From a virus (Duplodnaviria; Heunggongvirae; Uroviricota; Caudoviricetes): DNA of 64,000 bases. Shown here in pieces: positions 46,324 through 63,953 of the stretch. The translations under genes were made by a program, and so were the position numbers. Positions within the stretch are counted from its first letter, which is position 1, and the number at the start of each line of letters is the position of its first letter. The notes under the pieces are model-generated. The model ran no database searches. It was not told the origin of the DNA and was given only the letters and a program-made list of their open reading frames with translations. The DNA lies in IMG/VR virus record IMGVR_UViG_2585427757_000006. One strand, 5' to 3'.

Positions 46324-47898
46324 TCACTCGTTCTCTTGAGTAGATGAGTCCCCATTCCCTCGGGGTTGATCTTGCCCGCTTTCTTGGGCTGCACCACGAT
46401 CATAAGTAAGTACTGACTTATTTTCAAGGGTATTTAGATCATTTTTTGGAGGAAAATTCAAGAGATCTTTATCAAATTCCTTTTTCATCGCCTCAGTAAT
46501 GTTCGGGAAAATCTTCTCAATAAGCATTTCCATCTGGTGACGACGTACAGAGTCCGGTGCCTGAAGTAATGACAGTTTCTCGGCAACAGAAAATTCATCA
46601 GTAAGGCCACGAATATCGAAACTTTCTGGATACGCAATTAAAGAGTGGTCTTCGTCCAGATCTGCCCCCATCCATTTCGCAACCAGTAGCATGATTTGGC
46701 GTTCAGCCCTTTCCAGACGCTCTGCTTTTGTGACAAGCAAGCTATTTACACGCTGGAAGTCATACATTTTTGCGGCACCAGATGAATTATCGATTCCCTG
46801 TGCGTTGTCCTGCTTCGTTCGCTCACCAGCTACACCAACTGAATGGTAGATTTCGTTAATCACCGTCTTAATCGTAGTGATGATCATCTGAGCTTGTTTC
46901 GGGTCTGGTGACAGATAAAACGGCTGGTTTCCACCTTCAGAATCGTAGGTGAAGACTCGCTTTGTGCCCATTTCAAGCACTTTAGTGTGGTTTTCATCAC
47001 CAGGTAAAAGCGACTGTACCGGTATAGCCAACTGGCTAAATGTCTGATCCTGAATAATGGCATCAAGGTTTGACAGATAGTTTGCAACCGCACGATCAAG
47101 ATAAGCGATATCATCGATCAACGATGGGCTGAAATACGGTGATTCACTTTCTCCAATACAATCAACAGGAAACACAGGAACTACGCCGAGATTATGCGCG
47201 CCGCTGTCCTCTAAAATAACTTTTGCCTGACGACGACCTGCTCCACCAGCCCCCTTCTTCACTTCCTCACGGAACAGATACCACTCGTTTTGTGTCCACA
47301 GACGATAACGTTGGTATTCCTGACCTGTAGAAGTAAAAGGATCTGCGTCATCGCGAGCGACTTCCACAATTAACGCCCATAACATATTCCCGTCGTCGTC
47401 CCATGCCACATCCAGCATTTGCTGAGGTGAAATCCAGTAGGCGTAGGCGCGAGCATCTTTCTTTTTCTCGTCAGCTACTGACTCAACATCACCACTCATC
47501 GTGCTATCGACAACAACCCATATGCGACCGTAAATAGACGACTGCAAATCAATGGCGGCCATAAATGAGTCAATAGAGGCATTCTGGCGAGTCGCACGTT
47601 TCCAGAAATTGCGGATCTGCTCTGGTGCCTCTTCGATATTTCTATGAATGTCTTCTTTAAAGAGATATTTGTTGATGAGGTTTACCACCTCACGAGTGTG
47701 GTTGAAGCGATAGGCACGCTCAACACGCTCCTTAAACTCCTGATCTCCCTCTTTAAAGTAACGAAAGATATTGTCTGTAAACCAACCACGCCCGCCAGCG
47801 TAAGTGCTGGCGAGGAAGTCCCAATGTTCTTTTTTCTTTTCGTATTCCGGGTGGCGTCGCGCCACCAGATCCTTAATTTGTTTGTCGTTCAATTCCAT
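46324..47898 (-). CDS. portal protein
   Basis: 524-aa ORF directly downstream of terminase large subunit. Confidence 0.75.
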   Translation of the reverse strand: MELNDKQIKDLVARRHPEYEKKKEHWDFLASTYAGGRGWFTDNIFRYFKEGDQEFKERVERAYRFNHTREVVNLINKYLFKEDIHRNIEEAPEQIRNFWKRATRQNASIDSFMAAIDLQSSIYGRIWVVVDSTMSGDVESVADEKKKDARAYAYWISPQQMLDVAWDDDGNMLWALIVEVARDDADPFTSTGQEYQRYRLWTQNEWYLFREEVKKGAGGAGRRQAKVILEDSGAHNLGVVPVFPVDCIGESESPYFSPSLIDDIAYLDRAVANYLSNLDAIIQDQTFSQLAIPVQSLLPGDENHTKVLEMGTKRVFTYDSEGGNQPFYLSPDPKQAQMIITTIKTVINEIYHSVGVAGERTKQDNAQGIDNSSGAAKMYDFQRVNSLLVTKAERLERAERQIMLLVAKWMGADLDEDHSLIAYPESFDIRGLTDEFSVAEKLSLLQAPDSVRRHQMEMLIEKIFPNITEAMKKEFDKDLLNFPPKNDLNTLENKSVLTYDRGAAQESGQDQPRGNGDSSTQENE

Positions 47899-47924: not shown

Positions 47925-49181
47925 CTATCGAGAACCACCAAGAATAACACGGTTTTTGACTGGATACCTACGATGTACTGGATAGCCCAATGCGTCTGCA
48001 CTATGCTCAATGCCACCTGTCTTATCCATATCTCGTGTTCCAGGCTTGTAGATGACTTTTTCCAGTGAATCAATCAAATGCTTGCACTTCGGATCGATAT
48101 ACAGCCGGATATCTCCAGATGCGGACATCAGCATTCGGTTAACAGCATTAACACGATCCGCAATTGGCGGGGGCTTTTTCGAATAATCGACACGTAAGAA
48201 TCCCTTCTCTTTGAATATGTCTACGTCAGACTCCCCACGAGCATGTTGGCGATAAGCACCTGCCGGATCTGGAAATACCGTTACCTGTGATTTCCAGCGC
48301 CAGAAGCGTCTCTCAAGCTCATCACAAACTTCTGCCGTGTTAGAGGAAAAGAGCACCAATTCATCAATTGCCCATAACTCACCATTTGGCTGAGGTTGCA
48401 AAATTACTGAAGACATCGGGTCAATGTTGAAGTCCTGCCCTACCCATATAGGCAACCGAGGGTTGAACTGAAGCGGTTTTACATGCACGTTACGATCGAA
48501 CGGGTAGTAAACGCGCCCGGACATGTTCTCAAAGCTGGCCAGGTACTCCTGAGCGAACGATTTGGGGTCCATATCGTTCTTAGCAGCTTCAATTTCCGCC
48601 GTAGGCACAAACGGAGAATCGGCAGTTACAAACTGCCAGCTCTTCCACTGTCCCTTTCTTTGCAGCTCTACGTTCTGGCCTATAGTCCACAGTTTGTGAA
48701 ATTCCGAGAAGCCTTTTGGCGTACCAATGATCAGTGCACCGCCGCGTGTCGATGAAAGAGTAGGTCGTAACACCTTGTACCAGGTGTCAGCCTTCATATC
48801 CTGAAATTCATCAAGCACTACAAAATGCAACGCTACGCCGCGCAGAGTGTCAGGCTTATCAGCACCTTTGAGGGCGATCTCCGAACCGTTCTTCAACACG
48901 ATTGTCATCGTGGTGTCGTTCTTTTTCCTAACCCACTTACGAGGCAGAACTTCCTGTAGATCGTCCCACAAAATCTGGCGAGCCATCTGGTAAGTAGGAG
49001 CGACATACCAGACCCTTTGCTTTTTTTCCTTTGCCGCCGCACGAATAATAGTGGAGATCGACAACCGGGATTTTCCCCAGCGTCGACCAGCACAAACAAC
49101 TTTAAATCGATGCGGAGACTGGAAGACTTTCATCTGTCCAGAATGCAGTTGCACAAGACTGAGCGAGGACGGGATTGCCAT
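47925..49181 (-). CDS. terminase large subunit
   Basis: 418-aa ORF; Walker A-like VVCAGRRWGKS, Walker B VVLDEF, C-terminal nuclease-like region. Confidence 0.85.
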   Translation of the reverse strand: MAIPSSLSLVQLHSGQMKVFQSPHRFKVVCAGRRWGKSRLSISTIIRAAAKEKKQRVWYVAPTYQMARQILWDDLQEVLPRKWVRKKNDTTMTIVLKNGSEIALKGADKPDTLRGVALHFVVLDEFQDMKADTWYKVLRPTLSSTRGGALIIGTPKGFSEFHKLWTIGQNVELQRKGQWKSWQFVTADSPFVPTAEIEAAKNDMDPKSFAQEYLASFENMSGRVYYPFDRNVHVKPLQFNPRLPIWVGQDFNIDPMSSVILQPQPNGELWAIDELVLFSSNTAEVCDELERRFWRWKSQVTVFPDPAGAYRQHARGESDVDIFKEKGFLRVDYSKKPPPIADRVNAVNRMLMSASGDIRLYIDPKCKHLIDSLEKVIYKPGTRDMDKTGGIEHSADALGYPVHRRYPVKNRVILGGSR

Positions 49182-49813
49182 TATTCGTCCTCCCCTTCAC
49201 TTCCATCATCTGTCGCATCAAATTCGCTTAGAGCTTCTTCTTCCAACGTCTCAAGCAATTCGTCATCGATGATTTCAGGCTCGTCGTCTTCCTGACGTAA
49301 TTTCGCCACCTGGGAAGGCGTAAGCTCACCAAATACCAGGTTCGGAATTTCTTCCTCGTCATTTTCCGCATGATCCATGCCCAATGCTTTGGACGAAACT
49401 TCAAAGCATTTTGCAAGGGTATTACTGGCTCTCTGTAAGCTCTTGAGAGAATCCTCAATCGCCCCTAAAGGCTTACCCTCACGTTTGGCCGTAGTGACTT
49501 CGACCATCACCATCTGCCCCAACGCATACGCCCAGCCGTCATAACGTGTACGACGTTCTTCTATCTTTTCCGCACGGGCTTTAGCGCGAAGCTCTGCGTC
49601 AGATTTAAGAGACTCACGAACCATCTTCCCAACAGAGTCCGCGCCTTTCTCTAATCCTCGCTTTTTGAAATGTCTGGAGAGTGTTTCACGACGAATGCCG
49701 TACTCTTCCTCCAGCTTTGAGAGTGTATATTCGCCTGACGTCCATTTGGCTTCAGCTTCGGCCCACTCCGCTGGTGTCAGGCGAGTTTTTACCTCGTCTT
49801 TTTCGACCGTCAT
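49181..49813 (-). CDS. terminase small subunit candidate
   Basis: 210-aa ORF; N-terminal HTH-like region, acidic C-terminus, stop overlaps large-subunit start. Confidence 0.6.
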   Translation of the reverse strand: MTVEKDEVKTRLTPAEWAEAEAKWTSGEYTLSKLEEEYGIRRETLSRHFKKRGLEKGADSVGKMVRESLKSDAELRAKARAEKIEERRTRYDGWAYALGQMVMVEVTTAKREGKPLGAIEDSLKSLQRASNTLAKCFEVSSKALGMDHAENDEEEIPNLVFGELTPSQVAKLRQEDDEPEIIDDELLETLEEEALSEFDATDDGSEGEDE

Positions 49814-49929
49814 AGATCCCTCTAAAACACACAGAGCGCGTCCATGCGCTCTAAAACAACTTGTTTACTGCATCTGCTAACCAACTTGTTTTCTGGGGTG
49901 TTTAATTAGGTCTGGCATGTCTTACGAAG

Positions 49930-49986
49930 CCTGCTTCCGTATATATTTAATAAGTTACTTATTATTTATATATACAGATGCAGGTC
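49930..49986. repeat. 57-bp imperfect palindromic element related to 17329-17383, core taagttacttatt
   Basis: Left arm cctgcttccgtatatat, right arm tatatacagatgcaggtc (2 mismatches to the reverse complement of the 17329-17383 left arm). Confidence 0.7.
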
Positions 49987-50008: not shown

Positions 50009-50275
50009 TTACATCACCAGTAACTTCGCTTTGGCTCGACCTAAAGTGGTTAACCCAAGAGTTCGGCGGTGATAGCGATTGTCACTGCGTTGGCGCGTAT
50101 GCCCTTTCTCCACCAGCCCCTTTTTTATCAGAGCGCGAATTGAGAACTGGATACTTTGCTTGGTTGTCTTGTACGGCAAAACTTCAAGCAATTCGTCCAG
50201 GTCAAGTAGATGACCTCGCTCATAACCGAGATTGAGCGTTTTGATGATGTCCTTTTGTTTATCGGTTAACGTCAT
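50009..50275 (-). CDS. small winged-helix DNA-binding protein candidate
   Basis: 88-aa ORF; segment KQSIQFSIRALIKKGLVEK HTH-like. Confidence 0.4.
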   Translation of the reverse strand: MTLTDKQKDIIKTLNLGYERGHLLDLDELLEVLPYKTTKQSIQFSIRALIKKGLVEKGHTRQRSDNRYHRRTLGLTTLGRAKAKLLVM

Positions 50276-50284
50276 GGCAAATCC

Positions 50285-51184
50285 TTATGCCGGTAAAGCA
50301 ATTTCTAACGGTTTATCCAAAGGTTGTTTGTCGAATGCCAGCAGTGGCAGCGTGTCAGGCAGTCGACGACCAAAGTCAGGGTTTCGATACACACCATACA
50401 ACGGAGACGTAAAGCTCAGGTTGTGAATGTCCTTGAGCAGCTTCACAATGCTGGCCTCGTCCACCAGACTGTCGGCAATGTCCTGAATCGTCGTGCCACG
50501 ATTCCGCCCAGCTTTTGCCAGGGAACTGTTCTTGTGGTAGTCCGCCACCAGATCACGCAGTGCACGGCGACGACGAGACTCGCTCATAGCGAACAACTCT
50601 TTGACGATCGCCTCGTTATCACCCGGGTCGGAGCGGAAATGGCGCTGGAACACACGCAGTGCACTTTCATAGCTCTTCGGTCGCTCAGAGCGGATGAACT
50701 TAAACCCTGCTTTCATGGCGAAGGGATTGTATTTGCTCATCGATGACTGGATCTCAATGATTGGCCGGTCATGCATCCTGCTAACCAGGTTAATCATTCG
50801 ATAAGAGACGCCTACGCCACGGTACTGAGTATCCACAACTGAGCGGCTGATCACCGCAAAGTTGTTATTCACGTACCGGCCCCAGTACTGGTTAGCCACG
50901 GTGGTATTGGTGGTTGGTTTCAACTTAGGAAACATGCGATGGCGAGGTGCCAGCAGAAGTTTCGGGTAAGCCATAACCACGACGCCCACCAGACGGTCAT
51001 CCAGTTCGCAGCGATAGTATGTTGGCGCGAAAGGTTTGCCGTCTGTTTTGTAGTGAAGCGACTTAAGAGCGTGCCAGTCCTCTACAGTTCCCTTTGTGAC
51101 AGTCATTCGCTCCAGAAAGTCCAGATGACGCGGAAACTCTTCAGGGCGGTAGCGTTTGATGATGATATCTGCCATGTCGATCAC
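50285..51184 (-). CDS. hypothetical protein
   Basis: 299-aa ORF; no confident motif. Confidence 0.45.
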   Translation of the reverse strand: MIDMADIIIKRYRPEEFPRHLDFLERMTVTKGTVEDWHALKSLHYKTDGKPFAPTYYRCELDDRLVGVVVMAYPKLLLAPRHRMFPKLKPTTNTTVANQYWGRYVNNNFAVISRSVVDTQYRGVGVSYRMINLVSRMHDRPIIEIQSSMSKYNPFAMKAGFKFIRSERPKSYESALRVFQRHFRSDPGDNEAIVKELFAMSESRRRRALRDLVADYHKNSSLAKAGRNRGTTIQDIADSLVDEASIVKLLKDIHNLSFTSPLYGVYRNPDFGRRLPDTLPLLAFDKQPLDKPLEIALPA

Positions 51185-51435
51185 CTGCGCTCGATATTGG
51201 CATTGATGAAATCCAGGCGAAGAGACTCCATCGCCCCTACCATGACATACGGGCGCCCGCCGTTATGCCAGCAATCAAGAACACTGCCGTCGTTGTTGAT
51301 CATCAACAGCGCCAGACTCTGGCTTTTTCCTTCTCTGGCATGCTGAAGTGCTTCTTCCAGCAGGCGGATGACTTCCACGTTGTTGTTATCAGTCTCTTTC
51401 GATGGCTTCAGCTCTACGATCTTCAAATCAGGCAT
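51181..51435 (-). CDS. hypothetical protein
   Basis: 84-aa ORF, overlapping start/stop with neighbours. Confidence 0.4.
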   Translation of the reverse strand: MPDLKIVELKPSKETDNNNVEVIRLLEEALQHAREGKSQSLALLMINNDGSVLDCWHNGGRPYVMVGAMESLRLDFINANIERR

Positions 51436-52066
51436 ATTCCACCTTCACGCGTTCTTTGTAGTGCTTGGTGATCTGCATATCCGGGCGCAGCGCGTTCTTC
51501 AGGTCTTCGTGAGTCGTCGCCACCATTACCGTCGCACCAACCTTTCGAGCGGCACGCTGGAGGTTAGACGCCACAACCTGAGCGGTTACACGGTCTAGAA
51601 CAGCGCCGAACTCGTCAGCAGCCCATACTTTAGCGCCTGACTCAATCAGTTTGGCAATCTTGAGACGATATTTCTGGCCGTCTGACATTTCAGAAGGCTT
51701 GCGAACAAACAGATATGCATCGTTCAGACCAGCCATAGATAACAACCCAAGCGCATCACTGGTCGTTTTGCCCAACTGATCGATGACGTTAACCTCATTA
51801 TCGAAGGTAAAATCATCGATGGAGGCTACAGACAGCCCTTCATCCTTCATCTGTCGTTGCAACTCGCGCAGCACAACGGATTTGCCGGAACCGGATTGGC
51901 CGGTGATGTACACCACATCGCCCTGCTTCACTTCCAGCTCCAGATTGTCGTAAAGCGTCCACTCTTTTTCGTCCAGGCCAAGCCCGAACGACTCAGCGAT
52001 TTCCAACGTGCGCGTGGTTTTATTTACGCGTGTCTGAAACGATACGTTGATGATGTATTTGCTCAT
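51428..52066 (-). CDS. ABC-type ATPase (no transmembrane domain)
   Basis: Walker A GQSGSGKS, ABC signature-like MSDGQ, Walker B VWAADEF, H-loop TTHED. Confidence 0.65.
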   Translation of the reverse strand: MSKYIINVSFQTRVNKTTRTLEIAESFGLGLDEKEWTLYDNLELEVKQGDVVYITGQSGSGKSVVLRELQRQMKDEGLSVASIDDFTFDNEVNVIDQLGKTTSDALGLLSMAGLNDAYLFVRKPSEMSDGQKYRLKIAKLIESGAKVWAADEFGAVLDRVTAQVVASNLQRAARKVGATVMVATTHEDLKNALRPDMQITKHYKERVKVEYA

Positions 52067-52764
52067 GCAGCCATCTCCCCGGAAGAGATCTTCTCCGCAT
52101 ATGCCACAAATGCGTCTACCCCGCTTTCTCCCGTCATTTCTTCCATGTGGGCAAGCAAATCACCAACAACAATGGCAGAGCCAGCAGGAAGCGTTTTAAA
52201 GCCCAATACGTCGACAACACGTACTTCTTCCGCTGCAACTTCACGACTGATCTCGGTGTGTTCATCCTTCTGTCGTTTAGTTTCTTCGCCAAGATCGATA
52301 ACTAGCGAGTCGGTGTCCATTTCTTCTGTCATACTGCCAACGAGAACATTCAACTCACGCTCTTCGAAGCCGAAAACCTCGATATCGTCCAGAACAAGCG
52401 ACTCAAGCTCTTTCTGTAGCTTAATTGCATCGTAATCAATGCTGGCAAGTCGGTTATCTTCAAGGCGCTTTGCACGTACCTCGTCATCACTCAGATCATC
52501 ACGAACAATAACCGGTACGCGCTCAAGTCCAGCAAAAATTGCAGCCTCACGGCGGCCGTGGCCAGTAATAATTACGTCGTTCTTATCGACCGTAATTGGC
52601 TGGTCAAATCCACGCTTTTTAATGGCTGCGGCCAGATCTCTGATCTGCTGTTCATCATGCTTTTTGGCATTCATCTCATAGGGAATAAGATCTGCCGGGT
52701 CGCGATATACGATTTCAAACTTTTTGGTCATTACATACGCTCCTTGTAGTAGTCGACCAGCCAC
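52063..52764 (-). CDS. ParB/Srx-domain protein
   Basis: ParB N-terminal-domain motif ITGHGRREAAIFAGLERVPV. Confidence 0.7.
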   Translation of the reverse strand: MAGRLLQGAYVMTKKFEIVYRDPADLIPYEMNAKKHDEQQIRDLAAAIKKRGFDQPITVDKNDVIITGHGRREAAIFAGLERVPVIVRDDLSDDEVRAKRLEDNRLASIDYDAIKLQKELESLVLDDIEVFGFEERELNVLVGSMTEEMDTDSLVIDLGEETKRQKDEHTEISREVAAEEVRVVDVLGFKTLPAGSAIVVGDLLAHMEEMTGESGVDAFVAYAEKISSGEMAA

Positions 52765-53429
52765 ACCAGAGCCTCACCAGCGTTCTCCATTTCATTACCG
52801 GTGTTAATAGCCTGCTCTTTGATGATGTTTTTTATGGTTTCTGCAACACGATCTGACGCATCGAAAGTTACTTTGAAGCGCATGGTCTGATGTTCCGCAC
52901 CCACACGTTCGGTTTTCTCTCGTTTGTCGGTATCGACAGGCTCATCACTACCACGAGACAACGCCTCCAGTGCTTCAAGGTCGATTGCCGCCTCTTTTGC
53001 TAAAACCATCGAGATTTCGTCGTCATACGGAGCGATTTCAGACAGTTGATAGTCAAGTTCTGACTGAATTTCTTCAATGAAGCGTTGCAATGCGATTTGG
53101 TCGTCTTCACCGTATCGCTCGTTGTCCACCAGTGACATCTGTTTAGCTACGACATCGCTAATTTTGCCCACAGAAAGCACCGGAACCGTTGAAATTCCTT
53201 GCTCAATAGCAGCACGCCAGCGATGTTCACCGCCGAGGATTTCAAAAAATCCATCTTCAAGTTCACGAGCCAAAATTGGCTTAAAAAAGCCCAATTTTTC
53301 GATAGAACCTTTCAGTTTTTCAAAATTCTGCGCACCAACCGAATTGGTGTTCCAGGTATTCGGGCGAAGGTTGGCAACATCAACCTGCAAAATCGTGATT
53401 TTTACATCCATTTTATTGCTACAATCCAC
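52731..53429 (-). CDS. ParB/Srx-domain protein (second copy)
   Basis: Motif ILGGEHRWRAAIEQGISTVPV; acidic C-terminal half. Confidence 0.7.
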   Translation of the reverse strand: MDCSNKMDVKITILQVDVANLRPNTWNTNSVGAQNFEKLKGSIEKLGFFKPILARELEDGFFEILGGEHRWRAAIEQGISTVPVLSVGKISDVVAKQMSLVDNERYGEDDQIALQRFIEEIQSELDYQLSEIAPYDDEISMVLAKEAAIDLEALEALSRGSDEPVDTDKREKTERVGAEHQTMRFKVTFDASDRVAETIKNIIKEQAINTGNEMENAGEALVWLVDYYKERM

Positions 53430-53493
53430 TAAGTAATCACTTACTTATTATAATAGCCAAATAACATACAAAAGGCACTAAGGAAAGAGGTTT

Positions 53494-55053
53494 ATGACTG
53501 TTCGGATTGTATCTAACGCAGTAAATGCGCTTATTTCTGGCGCAGATGACAAGGTAAAGCAACTGGTGCAGCAAATGTTGAGCTACGAAGTCGAGACTGG
53601 CGACTGGAAGGGCACAAGCACGATGTTCAACTGGAGTAAAAACTCGTTCCCTGCTGGCTTTGCCAAGCCTGTAGCGGCGAACTTGAACAAGGCGGGCATC
53701 AAATGTGTTCATATCCGCAAAGACAAAGCCCCGGCGCTTGGTAAACCAAATCCGGCGGTTAACCCATTCCCATACAATCCTGATTATGCGTATCAGGATC
53801 AGACTGTGGAAACACTGGTTCGAGAGGGAATGATGATTGCGCAGATCGCTACTGGTGGCGGGAAATCTAACGTTGCCTGCAAAGCAGCTGCACGTATCGG
53901 TCGAATGACATTATTTTTAACAACCCGCTCTGTTCTGATGTTTCAAATGGCCGAAAACTTCCAGAGATCCATCGACTACCGCGCCGAAAATGGCGAACCG
54001 TGGTTAAAGGGCCAAAAGGTTGGAGTCATTGGCTCGGGTGAGTTCCAGGTATCACGACATATCAACGTCGCTACAGTTCAAACTCTGGCAAGTTTCCTTG
54101 AAGAACCACCACGCGATGCAACACCAGATAAAAAGAGCTACCACCTCAAACGTCGGGAGTTGGTGAAACGCTTCCTTTCAAGTGTGTCTCTGCTTATTCT
54201 GGAAGAAGCGCATGAGTCTTCAGGCTCTAATTTCTATGACATTGCCAGATTATGTGTGAACGCAGACTATCGTCTGGCGCTTACAGCCACGCCGTTCATG
54301 AAGGATTCGACGGAAGCCAACATGCGCCTGATGGCGGTGGCCGGGCGAATTGAAATTAAAGTCACAGAAAAGTACCTGATTGATCGAGGCATTCTGGCAA
54401 AACCGTACTTCCTTTATCATAAAGTTGCCTACAAGCCAGACGAGGCCAGAATCAAGGCCGAACTTGCCAACAAACACCTTAATTTTAGAGTAGGTATGAG
54501 CACAGCCTACCAAAAGGCTTATCAGTTGGGGATCGTGTATAATTTGGGACGTAACGAGGCCATTGTGCGCGAGGCATTGCTTTATAAGCAACATTCACTC
54601 AACTGCATGACTCTGGTTCGTCTTAAACGCCACGGGCAAATCCTGATGGAGATGATGAAGGAGTCAGGTCTTAAAGTTGATTTCATCTATGGGGAATCTA
54701 ACCAGACGACAAGGCAAGCAAAGCTGAATAGTTTAGCGTCTGGTGAAATAGATGTTTTAATAGGCTCGACTATTCTGGATGTTGGTGTTGATGTGCCAAG
54801 CGTTGGTGCGGTCATTCTTGCTGGTGGTGGGAAAGCAGAAGTTGAAATGAGACAGCGTGTCGGTCGCGGCTTACGAGCCAAAAAAAATCAGGCAAACGTG
54901 TGTTTTATCACTGATTTCATTGACATTAGCAACAAATACCTGTTGTCTCACTCTTATGAGCGAAAACACATCATCGACACCACACCTGGCTTTGCAGAAG
55001 GTGTATTGCCTATTGATGGAGCATTCGATTTTGGAGTTCTGAAACGAGATTAG
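53494..55053 (+). CDS. superfamily-2 DEAD/DEAH-type helicase
   Basis: Walker A TGGGKS, motif II LILEEAHE, C-terminal helicase motifs (QRVGRGLR). Confidence 0.75.
   Translation: MTVRIVSNAVNALISGADDKVKQLVQQMLSYEVETGDWKGTSTMFNWSKNSFPAGFAKPVAANLNKAGIKCVHIRKDKAPALGKPNPAVNPFPYNPDYAYQDQTVETLVREGMMIAQIATGGGKSNVACKAAARIGRMTLFLTTRSVLMFQMAENFQRSIDYRAENGEPWLKGQKVGVIGSGEFQVSRHINVATVQTLASFLEEPPRDATPDKKSYHLKRRELVKRFLSSVSLLILEEAHESSGSNFYDIARLCVNADYRLALTATPFMKDSTEANMRLMAVAGRIEIKVTEKYLIDRGILAKPYFLYHKVAYKPDEARIKAELANKHLNFRVGMSTAYQKAYQLGIVYNLGRNEAIVREALLYKQHSLNCMTLVRLKRHGQILMEMMKESGLKVDFIYGESNQTTRQAKLNSLASGEIDVLIGSTILDVGVDVPSVGAVILAGGGKAEVEMRQRVGRGLRAKKNQANVCFITDFIDISNKYLLSHSYERKHIIDTTPGFAEGVLPIDGAFDFGVLKRD

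Positions 55054-61986: not shown

Positions 61987-63953
<1,967 letters not shown>

What the first reader, a model, noticed from the sequence alone, without database searches (positions are those of the whole stretch)
50285..55053. Cluster of two ParB/Srx-domain proteins, an ABC-type ATPase and a divergent SF2 helicase upstream of the packaging genes
The two adjacent ParB N-domain proteins (GxGRRxAA and GGEHRWRAA motifs) and the soluble ABC ATPase have no obvious role in the structural module. The combination could be a second DNA-segregation or condensation system, a DNA-modification/anti-restriction module, or a packaging accessory.
Basis: partly seen in the sequence, partly recalled or inferred. 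Interest (0 to 1): 0.55.

Follow-up and report, generated by a model that had tools for sequence, protein, structure and literature searches.

The report
Phage ParB-linked ATPase–acyltransferase module
Just upstream of the DNA-packaging genes, this SSU5-like plasmid-prophage carries two ParB-like proteins and an ATPase paired with a previously unrecognised acyltransferase; the set recurs in many unrelated phages and most likely chemically modifies phage DNA, not partitions the plasmid.

Summary
Window 50285-55053 holds two paralogous ParB/Srx proteins, a soluble ABC ATPase and a divergently transcribed SF2 helicase, upstream of TerS-like, TerL and portal genes.

The unnamed 299-aa ORF inside its coordinates is a GNAT acyltransferase. 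In distant relatives it is fused to the C-terminus of the same ABC ATPase, so ABC and GNAT form one split enzyme.

ParB followed by ABC-GNAT, usually within a few genes of TerL, recurs at 25-45% identity in lytic and temperate phages of Proteobacteria, Actinobacteria, Firmicutes and Spirochaetes. Four different TerL families are involved. This rules out plasmid partition.

The arrangement fits the "ParB-Tls locus" predicted in 2013 to modify phage DNA at packaging. It also fits the 2026 demonstration that HTH-less phage ParBs activate a DNA-modifying dioxygenase.

Best reading (about 0.5): an ATP-driven, ParB-assisted DNA acylation module that protects phage DNA. The substrate and the chemistry are untested.

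The helicase belongs to a general replication-helicase family and is probably only a neighbour.

RefSeq calls the GNAT "hypothetical", and phage records call it an "ABC transporter". The module is present in 247 of 5,426 complete E. coli genomes, always on plasmids.

The parts
52731..53429 (-). ParB-A. A ParB/Srx N-terminal (NTP-binding) domain, an acidic linker and a C-terminal domain; no HTH detected. The likely start is the ATG at 53411 (226 aa).
   Evidence: Pfam ParB_N E 3e-13; phrog_723; phmmer to Spo0J 1vz0 at E 2.6e-9. Box II motif GGEHRWRAA and box III DNERYG. pI 4.55. Orthologues lie in the same position in nickie, RHEph10 and BUCTxx99.
52063..52764 (-). ParB-B. A paralogue of ParB-A and the counterpart of the ParB-like gene that lies directly upstream of ABC-GNAT in most phages. 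The likely start is the ATG at 52731 (222 aa), separated by one base from the ParB-A stop codon (TAATG).
51428..52066 (-). Soluble ABC-type ATPase: a single nucleotide-binding domain forming the N-terminal half of a split ABC-GNAT enzyme.
   Evidence: Pfam ABC_tran E 5e-13; phrog_293; PDB ABC NBDs. All catalytic motifs are present and conserved across the fused family. tblastn of the fused protein P0184 covers this ORF plus the GNAT ORF (96% of the query, 35% identity).
51181..51435 (-). 84-aa ORF of unknown function inserted between the ABC and GNAT genes. It is a variable passenger and not a core part.
   Evidence: phrog_796, no other hit. Absent in Cyrano and in most E. coli plasmids that carry the module. 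Other small genes sit at this junction in nickie and RHEph10, and none in BUCTxx99.
50285..51184 (-). GNAT-fold acyltransferase (residues ~20-165) with a C-terminal helical domain: the C-terminal half of the split ABC-GNAT enzyme. The likely start is the ATG at 51175 (296 aa).
50009..50275 (-). 88-aa basic winged-helix-like protein, conserved between the GNAT gene and the TerS-like gene. It may be a DNA-binding adaptor or a regulator.
   Evidence: phrog_900; weak NCBIfam hits to the Sta1/Lrs14 wHTH families. pI 10.2. A small gene occupies the same position in nickie, RHEph10, BUCTxx99 and SSU5.
49832..49984 (-). Non-coding elements between the module and the TerS-like gene: an AT-rich palindrome (49930-49984), two direct repeats AAACAAGTTG(G/T)TT (49854-49895), and a terminator-like hairpin (49853-49832).
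   Evidence: All three elements are conserved in SSU5. The deposited SSU5 and Cyrano linear records break inside the palindrome.
47925..49813 (-). TerS-like gene (49181-49813) and terminase large subunit (47925-49181). Together they form the downstream boundary of the 'ParB-Tls' locus.
   Evidence: phrog_867; Pfam Terminase_6N, Terminase_3 and Terminase_6C.
53494..55053 (+). SF2 helicase (XPB/UvsW-like) transcribed divergently from a 64-nt shared region. It is a conserved neighbour within the SSU5/nickie lineage and probably not a component of the module.
   Evidence: Pfam DEAD, ResIII and Helicase_C; PDB XPBII, Rad25 and UvsW. There are 881 phage records with homologues, mostly in the replication modules of SPO1/K-like phages. 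Among 150 ORFs downstream of ABC-GNAT in the IMG/VR loci, only one had a DEAD hit.

Best explanation
The minus-strand operon ParB-A, ParB-B, ABC ATPase, (84-aa passenger), GNAT, wHTH is a phage 'ParB-Tls'-type nucleic-acid modification module.

Its catalytic core is a two-gene version of a widespread ABC-ATPase-GNAT fusion enzyme.

Proposed mechanism:
1. The basic GNAT subunit transfers an acyl group to an exocyclic amine of a base in phage DNA. Here the donor is probably acetyl-CoA, because no donor-making enzyme is linked.
2. ATP binding and hydrolysis by the dimerising ABC domains supply the conformational work needed to engage or open duplex DNA. This is analogous to the ATPase+GNAT enzyme TmcA on tRNA.
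3. The HTH-less, acidic ParB-like proteins act as NTP-dependent activators or clamps that hold the enzyme on DNA, as shown for ParB-dependent phage thymine dioxygenases.
4. The module lies directly in front of the terminase genes. If it is expressed with or just before them, DNA would be modified just before or during packaging and so be protected from host nucleases on the next infection.

Shown: the folds, the motifs, the ABC-GNAT fusion link, and the conserved ParB/ABC-GNAT/TerL neighbourhood.

Inferred: DNA as the substrate, the acyl donor, the role of ATP, the activator role of ParB, and the timing.
For: (1) The 299-aa protein is a GNAT with intact CoA-binding motifs.

(2) A profile search finds 974 cluster representatives. 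Distant ones are ABC(N)-GNAT(C) fusions, in the same order as the two genes here. A fused homologue aligns across both window ORFs.

(3) Synteny helicase<>ParB-A, ParB-B, ABC, GNAT, small wHTH, TerS, TerL, portal is kept at ~40% identity in nickie, RHEph10 and BUCTxx99.

(4) In 80 IMG/VR loci holding fused ABC-GNAT:
- a ParB-like ORF is at -1/-2 in 55 of 69 loci with upstream sequence;
- TerL is at +1..+5 in 38 of 60 loci with enough downstream sequence;
- the TerL genes hit four different TerL Pfam family groups.
Named examples are Streptococcus 315.4, Gordonia Sisko and Jace, and Leptospira LE4.

(5) Genes for acyl-donor supply or tailoring are linked in other phages, as in known DNA-hypermodification clusters:
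- aspartate decarboxylase plus CoA-transferase (Jace and IMG/VR loci);
- formyltransferase (Sisko, phiE255, Porphyromonas phages; 39 of 80 bacterial loci).

(6) In phiE255 the module lies after the tail-fibre genes at the end of the late operon. That is where com-mom lies in Mu (the Mu position is from own knowledge).

(7) The GNAT subunit is strongly basic (pI 9.8), consistent with a polyanionic substrate. Its best match among viral models is a Mom protein, though the match is weak.

(8) Literature:
- ParB-Tls loci were predicted to modify phage DNA during packaging (cited in PMC4738411 and PMC6536676).
- HTH-less phage ParBs (NBD+CTD) are required activators of a DNA thymine dioxygenase (PMC13229309).
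- ParB folds are fused to methyltransferases and acetyltransferases and bind CTP, ATP or GTP (PMC12704722).

(9) The ParB-B model has the same NBD + linker + CTD, no-HTH layout.
Against: - No experiment or direct computational test shows that DNA is the substrate. GNATs mostly acylate proteins and small molecules, and the structural matches are generic to the superfamily.
- In some phages ABC-GNAT sits in replication modules without an obvious ParB or TerL next to it.
- In the phiE255-like clade only a 47-85-aa remnant of the ParB C-terminal domain is kept, and TerL is not adjacent. So neither the ParB NTPase domain nor packaging is universally required.
- S. pyogenes phages have ParB+ABC with no GNAT found.
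- No report of modified DNA in SSU5-like phages turned up in the papers searched.
- The match to Mom is weak (E 9e-5, TM 0.34/0.48).
Confidence: 0.5

Rival explanations
1. Packaging accessory complex. The ParB-like proteins (as nucleases or NTPases) and the ABC ATPase help the terminase recognise, cut or hand over concatemeric DNA at the pac/cos site. The GNAT tunes this by acetylating a packaging protein.
For: - TerL lies within five genes downstream in 38 of 60 IMG/VR loci, across several unrelated TerL families.
- In Sisko no TerS is annotated between the ParB, ABC-GNAT and formyltransferase genes and TerL.
- In the window a conserved palindrome, direct repeats and a hairpin lie between the module and TerS. 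The SSU5 and Cyrano records break inside the palindrome.
Against: - The module also occurs away from TerL: in replication modules and at the end of the tail operon in Mu-like prophages.
- A separate TerS-like protein is present here.
- Linked PanD, CoA-transferase and formyltransferase genes make little sense for a purely mechanical packaging aid.
- ParB-Tls loci elsewhere carry bona fide DNA methyltransferases in the same slot (PMC6536676).
Confidence: 0.15
2. Host-takeover or anti-defence enzyme that does not act on DNA. ABC-GNAT acylates a host or phage protein, a charged tRNA, or a small signalling or nucleotide molecule. The ParB-like proteins serve as NTP-binding regulators or nucleotide-depleting enzymes.
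For: - The ABC-GNAT family occurs in varied genome contexts.
- Members of the ParB/Srx fold have ATPase, kinase-like and nuclease activities unrelated to DNA modification (discussed in PMC10853773 and PMC12704722).
Against: - There is a tight, nearly invariant coupling to a ParB-derived partner: 55 of 69 viral loci, and 79 of 80 bacterial loci at least as the C-terminal mini-domain.
- The module occupies a slot otherwise filled by DNA methyltransferases.
- Fusion to a family-B DNA polymerase and an intein in the ABC domain point to DNA metabolism.
Confidence: 0.2
3. A second plasmid partition or DNA-condensation system of the phage-plasmid. The ParB proteins would be the centromere binders, with the ABC ATPase acting as an SMC-like or ParA-like motor.
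For: - There are two ParB_N proteins and an ATPase on an element that is maintained as a plasmid: all 254 E. coli occurrences are on plasmids.
- RefSeq names ParB-A 'ParB/RepB/Spo0J family partition protein'.
Against: - The same module is present in lytic-type phages and integrated prophages of many phyla.
- There is no ParA/Walker-type partner, and no HTH (TIGR00180 below cut-off; model).
- No N-terminal LG(K/R)GL ParA-binding motif is visible in the sequences.
- No parS-like repeats were found.
- The ATPase is a minimal transporter-type NBD without coiled coils, fused to GNAT in relatives.
Confidence: 0.03

Closest known systems
Phage 'ParB-Tls' DNA-modification loci (Iyer, Zhang, Burroughs & Aravind, NAR 2013; seen here only as cited in PMC4738411 and PMC6536676)
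   Same: A ParB-like gene upstream, the terminase large subunit downstream, and a candidate nucleic-acid-modifying enzyme between them. The prediction is that ParB directs the modification apparatus to phage DNA at packaging.
   Different: The documented payloads are mainly N6A/N4C and C5 methyltransferases (often fused to ParB), TET/JBP enzymes and similar. Here the payload is a split ABC ATPase + GNAT, with two ParB paralogues. I could not read the 2013 paper, so I cannot say whether ABC-GNAT was already listed there.
ParB-dependent phage thymine dioxygenases (5mYOX + ParB; PNAS 2026, PMC13229309)
   Same: A phage ParB-like protein with NBD + linker + CTD and no DNA-binding domain, encoded next to a post-replicative DNA-modifying enzyme. 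[quoted passage not shown] It shows experimentally that such a ParB is an obligatory activator.
   Different: The enzyme there is an Fe(II)/2OG dioxygenase, not an ATPase-GNAT. There is one ParB, not two. No homology between the enzymes was found or expected.
Mom of phage Mu (GNAT-fold DNA adenine N6 methylcarbamoyl/carbamoylmethyl transferase; PDB 8bv8)
   Different: There is no detectable sequence homology, no ABC or ParB partner in Mu, and no Com-type regulator here. The structural similarity is not better than to many ordinary GNATs.
TmcA / NAT10 (ATPase + GNAT, N4-acetylcytidine in RNA)
   Same: An ATP-hydrolysing domain coupled to a GNAT that acetylates a nucleobase amine. It serves as a mechanistic analogy for why a GNAT would need an ATPase (own knowledge).
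   Different: The ATPase there is a helicase-type P-loop domain, not an ABC NBD. The substrate is RNA. There is no homology beyond the GNAT superfamily.
DpdA-DpdB (7-deazaguanine DNA modification) and DndB (phosphorothioation)
   Same: ParB-superfamily NTPases that work with DNA-modifying enzymes (described in PMC12839542 and PMC10853773).
   Different: The catalytic partners differ (a TGT-like transglycosylase; DndACDE). Those are bacterial defence systems rather than phage packaging-linked modules.
COG2401-type proteins ('ABC-type ATPase fused to a predicted acetyltransferase domain', MK0520)
   Same: The same two domains in the same order. The Cyrano and Klebsiella phage annotations already use this name for the 299-aa protein.
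   Different: Here the enzyme is split into two genes, with a variable small ORF at the junction. The family has no characterised member that I could find.

Membership tests
ParB/Srx (ParB-CTPase) fold | Pfam PF02195 match above the gathering score | tested here: met
   ParB-A scores 49.9 bits and ParB-B 35.0 bits against a cut-off of 26.3.
ParB/Srx (ParB-CTPase) fold | Three-dimensional fold similar to solved ParB N-domains or sulfiredoxin | tested here: met
ParB/Srx (ParB-CTPase) fold | Box II GxxR phosphate-binding motif and box III acidic/Asn motif | tested here: met
   ParB-A has GGEHRWRAA and DNER. ParB-B has GHGRREAA and EDNR, and these are invariant in the ParB-B family. Nucleotide binding itself was not tested.
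Canonical ParABS partition ParB (TIGR00180) | Full-length match including the HTH DNA-binding domain | tested here: not met
   TIGR00180 scores 43.3 and 43.0 bits against a cut-off of 58.45. The ParB-B model shows no HTH domain between NBD and CTD.
Canonical ParABS partition ParB (TIGR00180) | Adjacent ParA ATPase and a parS centromere array | tested here: not met
   No ParA/CbiA-type gene is in or beside the operon. There is no repeated palindrome array. The module is present in non-plasmid phages.
ABC ATPase superfamily | Walker A, signature LSGGQ-like, Walker B, D-loop and H-loop motifs in order | tested here: met
   GQSGSGKS (56-63), MSDGQ (127-131), DE (151-152), LD (157-158), H186. ABC_tran E 5e-13. 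The motifs are conserved in the fused family.
ABC transporter (import or export system) | A partner transmembrane domain or permease gene | tested here: not met
   There is no permease or membrane-protein family hit in the operon. In relatives the partner is a fused GNAT. The 'ABC transporter' names in phage records are therefore misleading.
GNAT acyltransferase superfamily | GNAT fold | tested here: met
GNAT acyltransferase superfamily | Motif A (Q/R-x-x-G-x-G/A) for CoA pyrophosphate binding | tested here: met
   Q120-Y-R-G123-V-G125. R122 and G125 are invariant, G123 is the consensus residue, and NPFAxKAGF follows. Fused relatives hit Pfam Acetyltransf_1/7/10.
GNAT acyltransferase superfamily | Acyl-CoA-dependent transferase activity | not testable with these tools
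   This needs biochemistry.
ABC-GNAT fusion family (COG2401-type) | Homology of both halves to one fused protein, in the same order | tested here: met
   The profile of the 299-aa family finds 440-500-aa proteins with an N-terminal ABC_tran domain. tblastn of fused P0184 covers 96% of its length across the two window genes.
ParB-Tls DNA-modification locus | ParB-like gene upstream and TerL downstream, on the same strand | tested here: met
   Window order is ParB-A, ParB-B ... TerS, TerL. The arrangement recurs in independent loci.
ParB-Tls DNA-modification locus | The sandwiched enzyme modifies DNA | not testable with these tools
   The evidence is only contextual: linked PanD, CoA-transferase and formyltransferase genes, a basic GNAT, and the mom-like position.
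Mom family | Sequence homology to Mu Mom | tested here: not met
   There is no Pfam, PHROG or NCBIfam Mom hit. Only fold-level similarity was found.
SF2 helicase | Two RecA-like domains with helicase motifs I and II and Helicase_C | tested here: met
   DEAD E 1.5e-14, ResIII E 1.8e-14, Helicase_C E 4e-13. Motif II is EEAH instead of DEAH.

The most novel reading that the evidence does not exclude
ABC-GNAT plus a ParB-derived partner is a widespread, so far uncharacterised class of ATP-dependent DNA acyltransferase. It would install a new N-acyl base modification in phage genomes: acetyl in SSU5-like elements, and beta-alanyl or formyl-aminoacyl where PanD, CoA-transferase or formyltransferase genes are linked. 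This would include the SSU5-like plasmid-prophages carried by about 4.6% of completely sequenced E. coli. The small C-terminal domain of ParB would be the obligatory adaptor, and the ParB NTPase domain an optional loader.
Probability: 0.35. Interest if true: 0.8.

Novelty: new variant of a known kind. Interest (0 to 1): 0.6.

Why it matters
If the module acylates DNA, it adds a new enzyme class and probably new chemistry to the list of phage DNA modifications. That has consequences for restriction evasion, for sequencing-based detection of modified bases, and for enzyme tools.

It would also give a second, chemically unrelated case of ParB-assisted DNA modification. That would help explain why orphan ParB folds are so common on mobile elements.

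There are practical consequences too:
- Hundreds of phage and plasmid records call these genes 'ABC transporter' or 'partition protein', and RefSeq calls the GNAT 'hypothetical'. Phage-plasmid typing and analyses of plasmid maintenance that rely on those names are misled.
- SSU5-like phage-plasmids have been reported to carry resistance genes in Enterobacteriaceae, so a DNA-protection system could affect their host range.

Tried and rejected
- Sequence search of the 299-aa family profile against PDB chains found nothing. Only structure prediction revealed the GNAT fold.
- PADLOC gave only weak, generic hits; the module is not a known defence system.
- Literature searches for COG2401 and 'ABC-type ATPase fused to acetyltransferase' found no functional study.
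- The Iyer et al. 2013 NAR paper is not held. I could not check whether ABC-GNAT is already listed among ParB-Tls payloads.
- The first viral-contig scan with the 299-aa family returned only near-identical SSU5-like loci, so I switched to fused homologues.
- A naive six-frame ORF caller produced spurious antisense ORFs in GC-rich loci. It was replaced by same-strand ORFs.
- The N-terminal ~440-aa extensions of long ABC-GNAT proteins (P0190, P0235) are not ParB-like.
- The context of the ABC-GNAT-TFIIB protein P0155 was too short to be useful.
- The afdb50 fold library was unavailable.
- I tested whether the helicase of Nonlabens phage P12024S, which lies near its ABC-GNAT, is orthologous to the window helicase. 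It shares only the generic Helicase_C region, so the idea that the helicase belongs to the module was dropped.
- The link to ASCH domains is anecdotal. It was seen in 315.4 and in L090 but was not among the Pfam families listed for the ORFs flanking ABC-GNAT in the 80 IMG/VR loci.
- The palindrome-centre motif ATAAGTNACTTAT is not a repeated parS-like array: there is one perfect copy, and the remaining matches have two mismatches each.
- TerL counts from the Pfam family tallies may double-count proteins that hit two TerL families. I therefore use the per-locus jackhmmer counts.

Full report
**What the window is.** The region is 99% identical to Escherichia phage CMS-2020a, 98% to phage Cyrano and 84% to Salmonella phage SSU5. 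It is therefore part of an SSU5-like phage-plasmid. The module at 50009-53429 occurs in 247 of 5,426 complete E. coli genomes, and all 254 places are on plasmids.

**Checking the observation.** The ORF map shows, on the minus strand:
- ParB-A: 53429/53411..52731
- ParB-B: 52764/52731..52063
- ABC ATPase: 52066..51428
- an 84-aa ORF: 51435..51181
- a 299-aa ORF: 51184..50285
- an 88-aa ORF: 50275..50009
- then, after a 195-nt gap, a TerS-like gene (49813..49181), TerL (49181..47925) and portal (47898..46324)

The SF2 helicase (53494..55053) is transcribed divergently, from a 64-nt intergenic region.

Each assignment holds up:
- Both ParB proteins exceed the Pfam ParB_N gathering score and match solved Spo0J, ParB and Noc chains. 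They are paralogues.
- The ATPase is a complete ABC nucleotide-binding domain.
- The helicase has DEAD, ResIII and Helicase_C domains.

**The missing piece: a GNAT.** It has no Pfam, NCBIfam or PADLOC hit and no sequence match in the PDB.
- With 45 homologues, AF2 gives a confident model (pLDDT 90, pTM 0.82).
- The CoA-binding motif A (Q120-x-x-G123-x-G125) and a motif-B-like NPFAxKAGF are conserved.
- The protein is very basic (pI 9.8; the GNAT domain has net charge +12). Both ParBs are acidic (pI 4.5).

**ABC and GNAT are one enzyme.** A profile search of 1.8 billion cluster representatives finds 974 relatives.
- The distant ones are mostly 440-500 aa, with the GNAT part at ~200-480.
- Pfam shows an ABC_tran domain in front of it.
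- The fused protein P0184 aligns by tblastn across both window genes (96% of the query, 35% identity).
- An alignment of 20 fused proteins keeps all ABC catalytic motifs and the GNAT motif A.
- Variants include an intein in the ABC domain and a PolB-ABC-GNAT fusion in a phage replication module.

The window therefore encodes a split version of this family. The 84-aa ORF sits at the split. It is absent from Cyrano and from most E. coli copies, and other small genes take its place in related phages.

**Conservation of the neighbourhood.** The whole arrangement (helicase<>ParB-A, ParB-B, ABC, GNAT, small basic protein, TerS-like, TerL, portal) is kept at ~40% protein identity in Pseudomonas phage nickie, Rhizobium phage RHEph10 and Stenotrophomonas phage BUCTxx99. 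These are ~110-kb phages that are not known plasmids.

Beyond this lineage, ParB followed by fused ABC-GNAT (or ABC alone), followed within a few genes by TerL, is seen in:
- Streptococcus prophage 315.4
- Gordonia phage Sisko (genes 1-4)
- Gordonia phage Jace
- Leptospira phage LE4

In 80 IMG/VR loci (40-65% identical to Jace gp86; more than 600 matching stretches exist):
- the same-strand ORF immediately upstream is ParB_N by Pfam in 34 of 76, and the majority consensus of those ORFs is ParB-like;
- iterative HMM searches find a ParB-like ORF at -1/-2 in 55 of 69 loci with upstream sequence;
- they find TerL at +1..+5 in 38 of 60 loci with more than 3 kb downstream;
- the TerL genes hit four different Pfam family groups, so the link does not come from shared descent of one structural module.

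**Clues to chemistry from other members.**
- Jace and several IMG/VR loci add aspartate decarboxylase (PanD) and CoA-transferases next to ABC-GNAT.
- Sisko, Burkholderia phage phiE255 and Porphyromonas phages add a PurN-like formyltransferase.
- In phiE255 the module lies after the tail-fibre genes at the end of the late operon. That is the position of com-mom in Mu (own knowledge).

Donor-making and tailoring enzymes around a transferase are typical of DNA-hypermodification clusters (own knowledge of the thymidine and 7-deazaguanine pathways).

In 80 bacterial genomes carrying phiE255-like ABC-GNAT:
- 79 have, directly upstream, a 47-85-aa mini-protein that corresponds to the C-terminal domain of the short ParBs;
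- only about five have a full ParB;
- a formyltransferase follows within 1.5 kb in 39;
- TerL is not adjacent.

So a ParB-derived partner is almost universal, but its NTPase domain is not.

**Literature.**
- Two held papers cite Iyer et al. 2013 for the 'ParB-Tls locus'. This names DNA-modifying genes sandwiched between a ParB-like gene and TerL, predicted to modify phage DNA during packaging, with ParB directing the machinery. I could not read the 2013 paper itself.
- A 2026 PNAS paper shows experimentally that phage ParB-like proteins with NBD + CTD and no DNA-binding domain are required activators of a post-replicative thymine dioxygenase. It also finds that terminases frequently co-occur.
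- A 2025 PNAS survey shows that ParB folds on mobile elements are fused to methyltransferases, acetyltransferases and ASCH domains, and bind CTP, ATP or GTP.
- The ParB-B model has exactly this NBD + acidic linker + small CTD layout.
- I found no paper on the ABC-GNAT family.

**Interpretation.** The best-supported reading is a ParB-Tls-type modification module whose enzyme is an ATP-dependent ABC-GNAT acyltransferase acting on phage DNA. The ParB proteins would act as activators or clamps, and expression would come just ahead of packaging.
- Shown: the folds, motifs, fusion link and neighbourhood.
- Inferred: DNA as the substrate, acetyl-CoA as the donor, the role of ATP (by analogy with TmcA), and the timing.

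I put this at about 0.5.

Rivals:
- A packaging accessory (0.15). It is supported by the TerL link and by the conserved palindrome, repeats and hairpin before TerS. The linked small-molecule enzymes and the TerL-independent contexts weaken it.
- A GNAT that does not act on DNA, used for host takeover or anti-defence (0.2).
- Plasmid partition (0.03). This is essentially excluded by the distribution, the lack of ParA, HTH and parS, and the nature of the ATPase.

**The helicase.** Its homologues are the replication-module SF2 helicases of SPO1-, K- and A511-like phages (881 records). It accompanies ABC-GNAT only in the SSU5/nickie lineage. The helicase near ABC-GNAT in Nonlabens phage P12024S is not orthologous. 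I treat it as a neighbour.

**Novelty and value.** The general kind (ParB-associated phage DNA-modification loci) is known, partly as prediction and since 2026 with one experimental case. The ABC-GNAT payload, its split form, the two ParB paralogues and the retained ParB C-terminal mini-domain appear undescribed in the literature I could reach. The genes are widely misnamed as 'ABC transporter', 'partition protein' or 'hypothetical'.

My verdict is a new variant of a known kind, with interest 0.6. It would be higher if a new DNA modification is demonstrated.

Noticed in passing
window 49930-49984: An AT-rich palindrome lies between the 88-aa wHTH gene and the TerS-like gene: CCTGCATCTGTATATAT...ATATATACGGAAGCAGG. 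In SSU5 the 17-nt arms are perfectly complementary. The deposited linear SSU5 and Cyrano records begin and end inside it. It could be a pac/cos site, a late promoter or operator, or simply an assembly break at a hairpin.
   Followed up: partly
window 49832-49895: Two direct repeats AAACAAGTTG(G/T)TT, 25 nt apart, are followed by a terminator-like hairpin (GAGCGC-loop-GCGCTC plus a T-rich run) about 20 nt before the TerS start codon. Both are conserved in SSU5, which differs in the loop and gains one extra stem pair. This suggests that the ParB-GNAT operon and the late packaging operon are separately controlled, possibly by antitermination.
   Followed up: partly
window 53430-53493: The 64-nt divergent region between ParB-A and the helicase contains TAATCACTTACTTATTAT. 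This resembles the centre of the palindrome upstream of TerS and may be a shared operator.
   Followed up: partly
window 51181-51435: An 84-aa ORF (phrog_796, function unknown) sits exactly at the junction of the split ABC and GNAT genes. It is missing in Cyrano and in most E. coli plasmid copies. Unrelated small genes (one is DUF2829) occupy the junction in nickie and RHEph10. The junction looks like a hot spot for small gene insertions.
   Followed up: partly
L181-L260 (e.g. L185 5837-6004; L098 3810-3974): In phiE255-like prophages a 47-85-aa mini-protein directly precedes ABC-GNAT. It has the motif GF[KR]Y[KR]xQ[FY]G[VI]I[VI]VC..E..QQ...QGY..KVV.V and is homologous to the C-terminal domain of the short phage ParBs. 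A few loci keep the full ParB. This suggests that the domain is the actual partner of ABC-GNAT.
   Followed up: partly
window 61987-63953: An IS21-family element (IstA transposase 61987-63159, IstB ATPase 63156-63953) lies at the right end of the window.
   Followed up: no
window 486-16430: Other genes recognised in passing: CobT-like VWA protein (486-2594), tyrosine recombinase (3537-4640), ATP-dependent DNA ligase (9283-10605), Sel1-repeat protein (12645-13835), primase-like protein (13827-15080) and DnaB-like helicase (15090-16430).
   Followed up: no
L087-L089 8001-11783: A 1,260-aa protein joins a family-B DNA polymerase (exonuclease and polymerase domains) to ABC-GNAT in one ORF. It lies in a phage replication module with Prim-Pol, RecA and a 5'-3' exonuclease, and was seen on at least 24 contigs. 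Another relative, P0165, carries an intein in the ABC domain.
   Followed up: partly
L092 4486-6490; L090 10558-10818: ASCH-domain genes lie near ParB+ABC in Streptococcus prophage 315.4 and next to a 908-aa ABC-GNAT protein. ASCH is a predicted reader of modified bases, and E. coli YqfB hydrolyses N4-acetylcytidine (own knowledge). The association was not among the Pfam families listed for the ORFs flanking ABC-GNAT in the 80 IMG/VR loci.
   Followed up: partly
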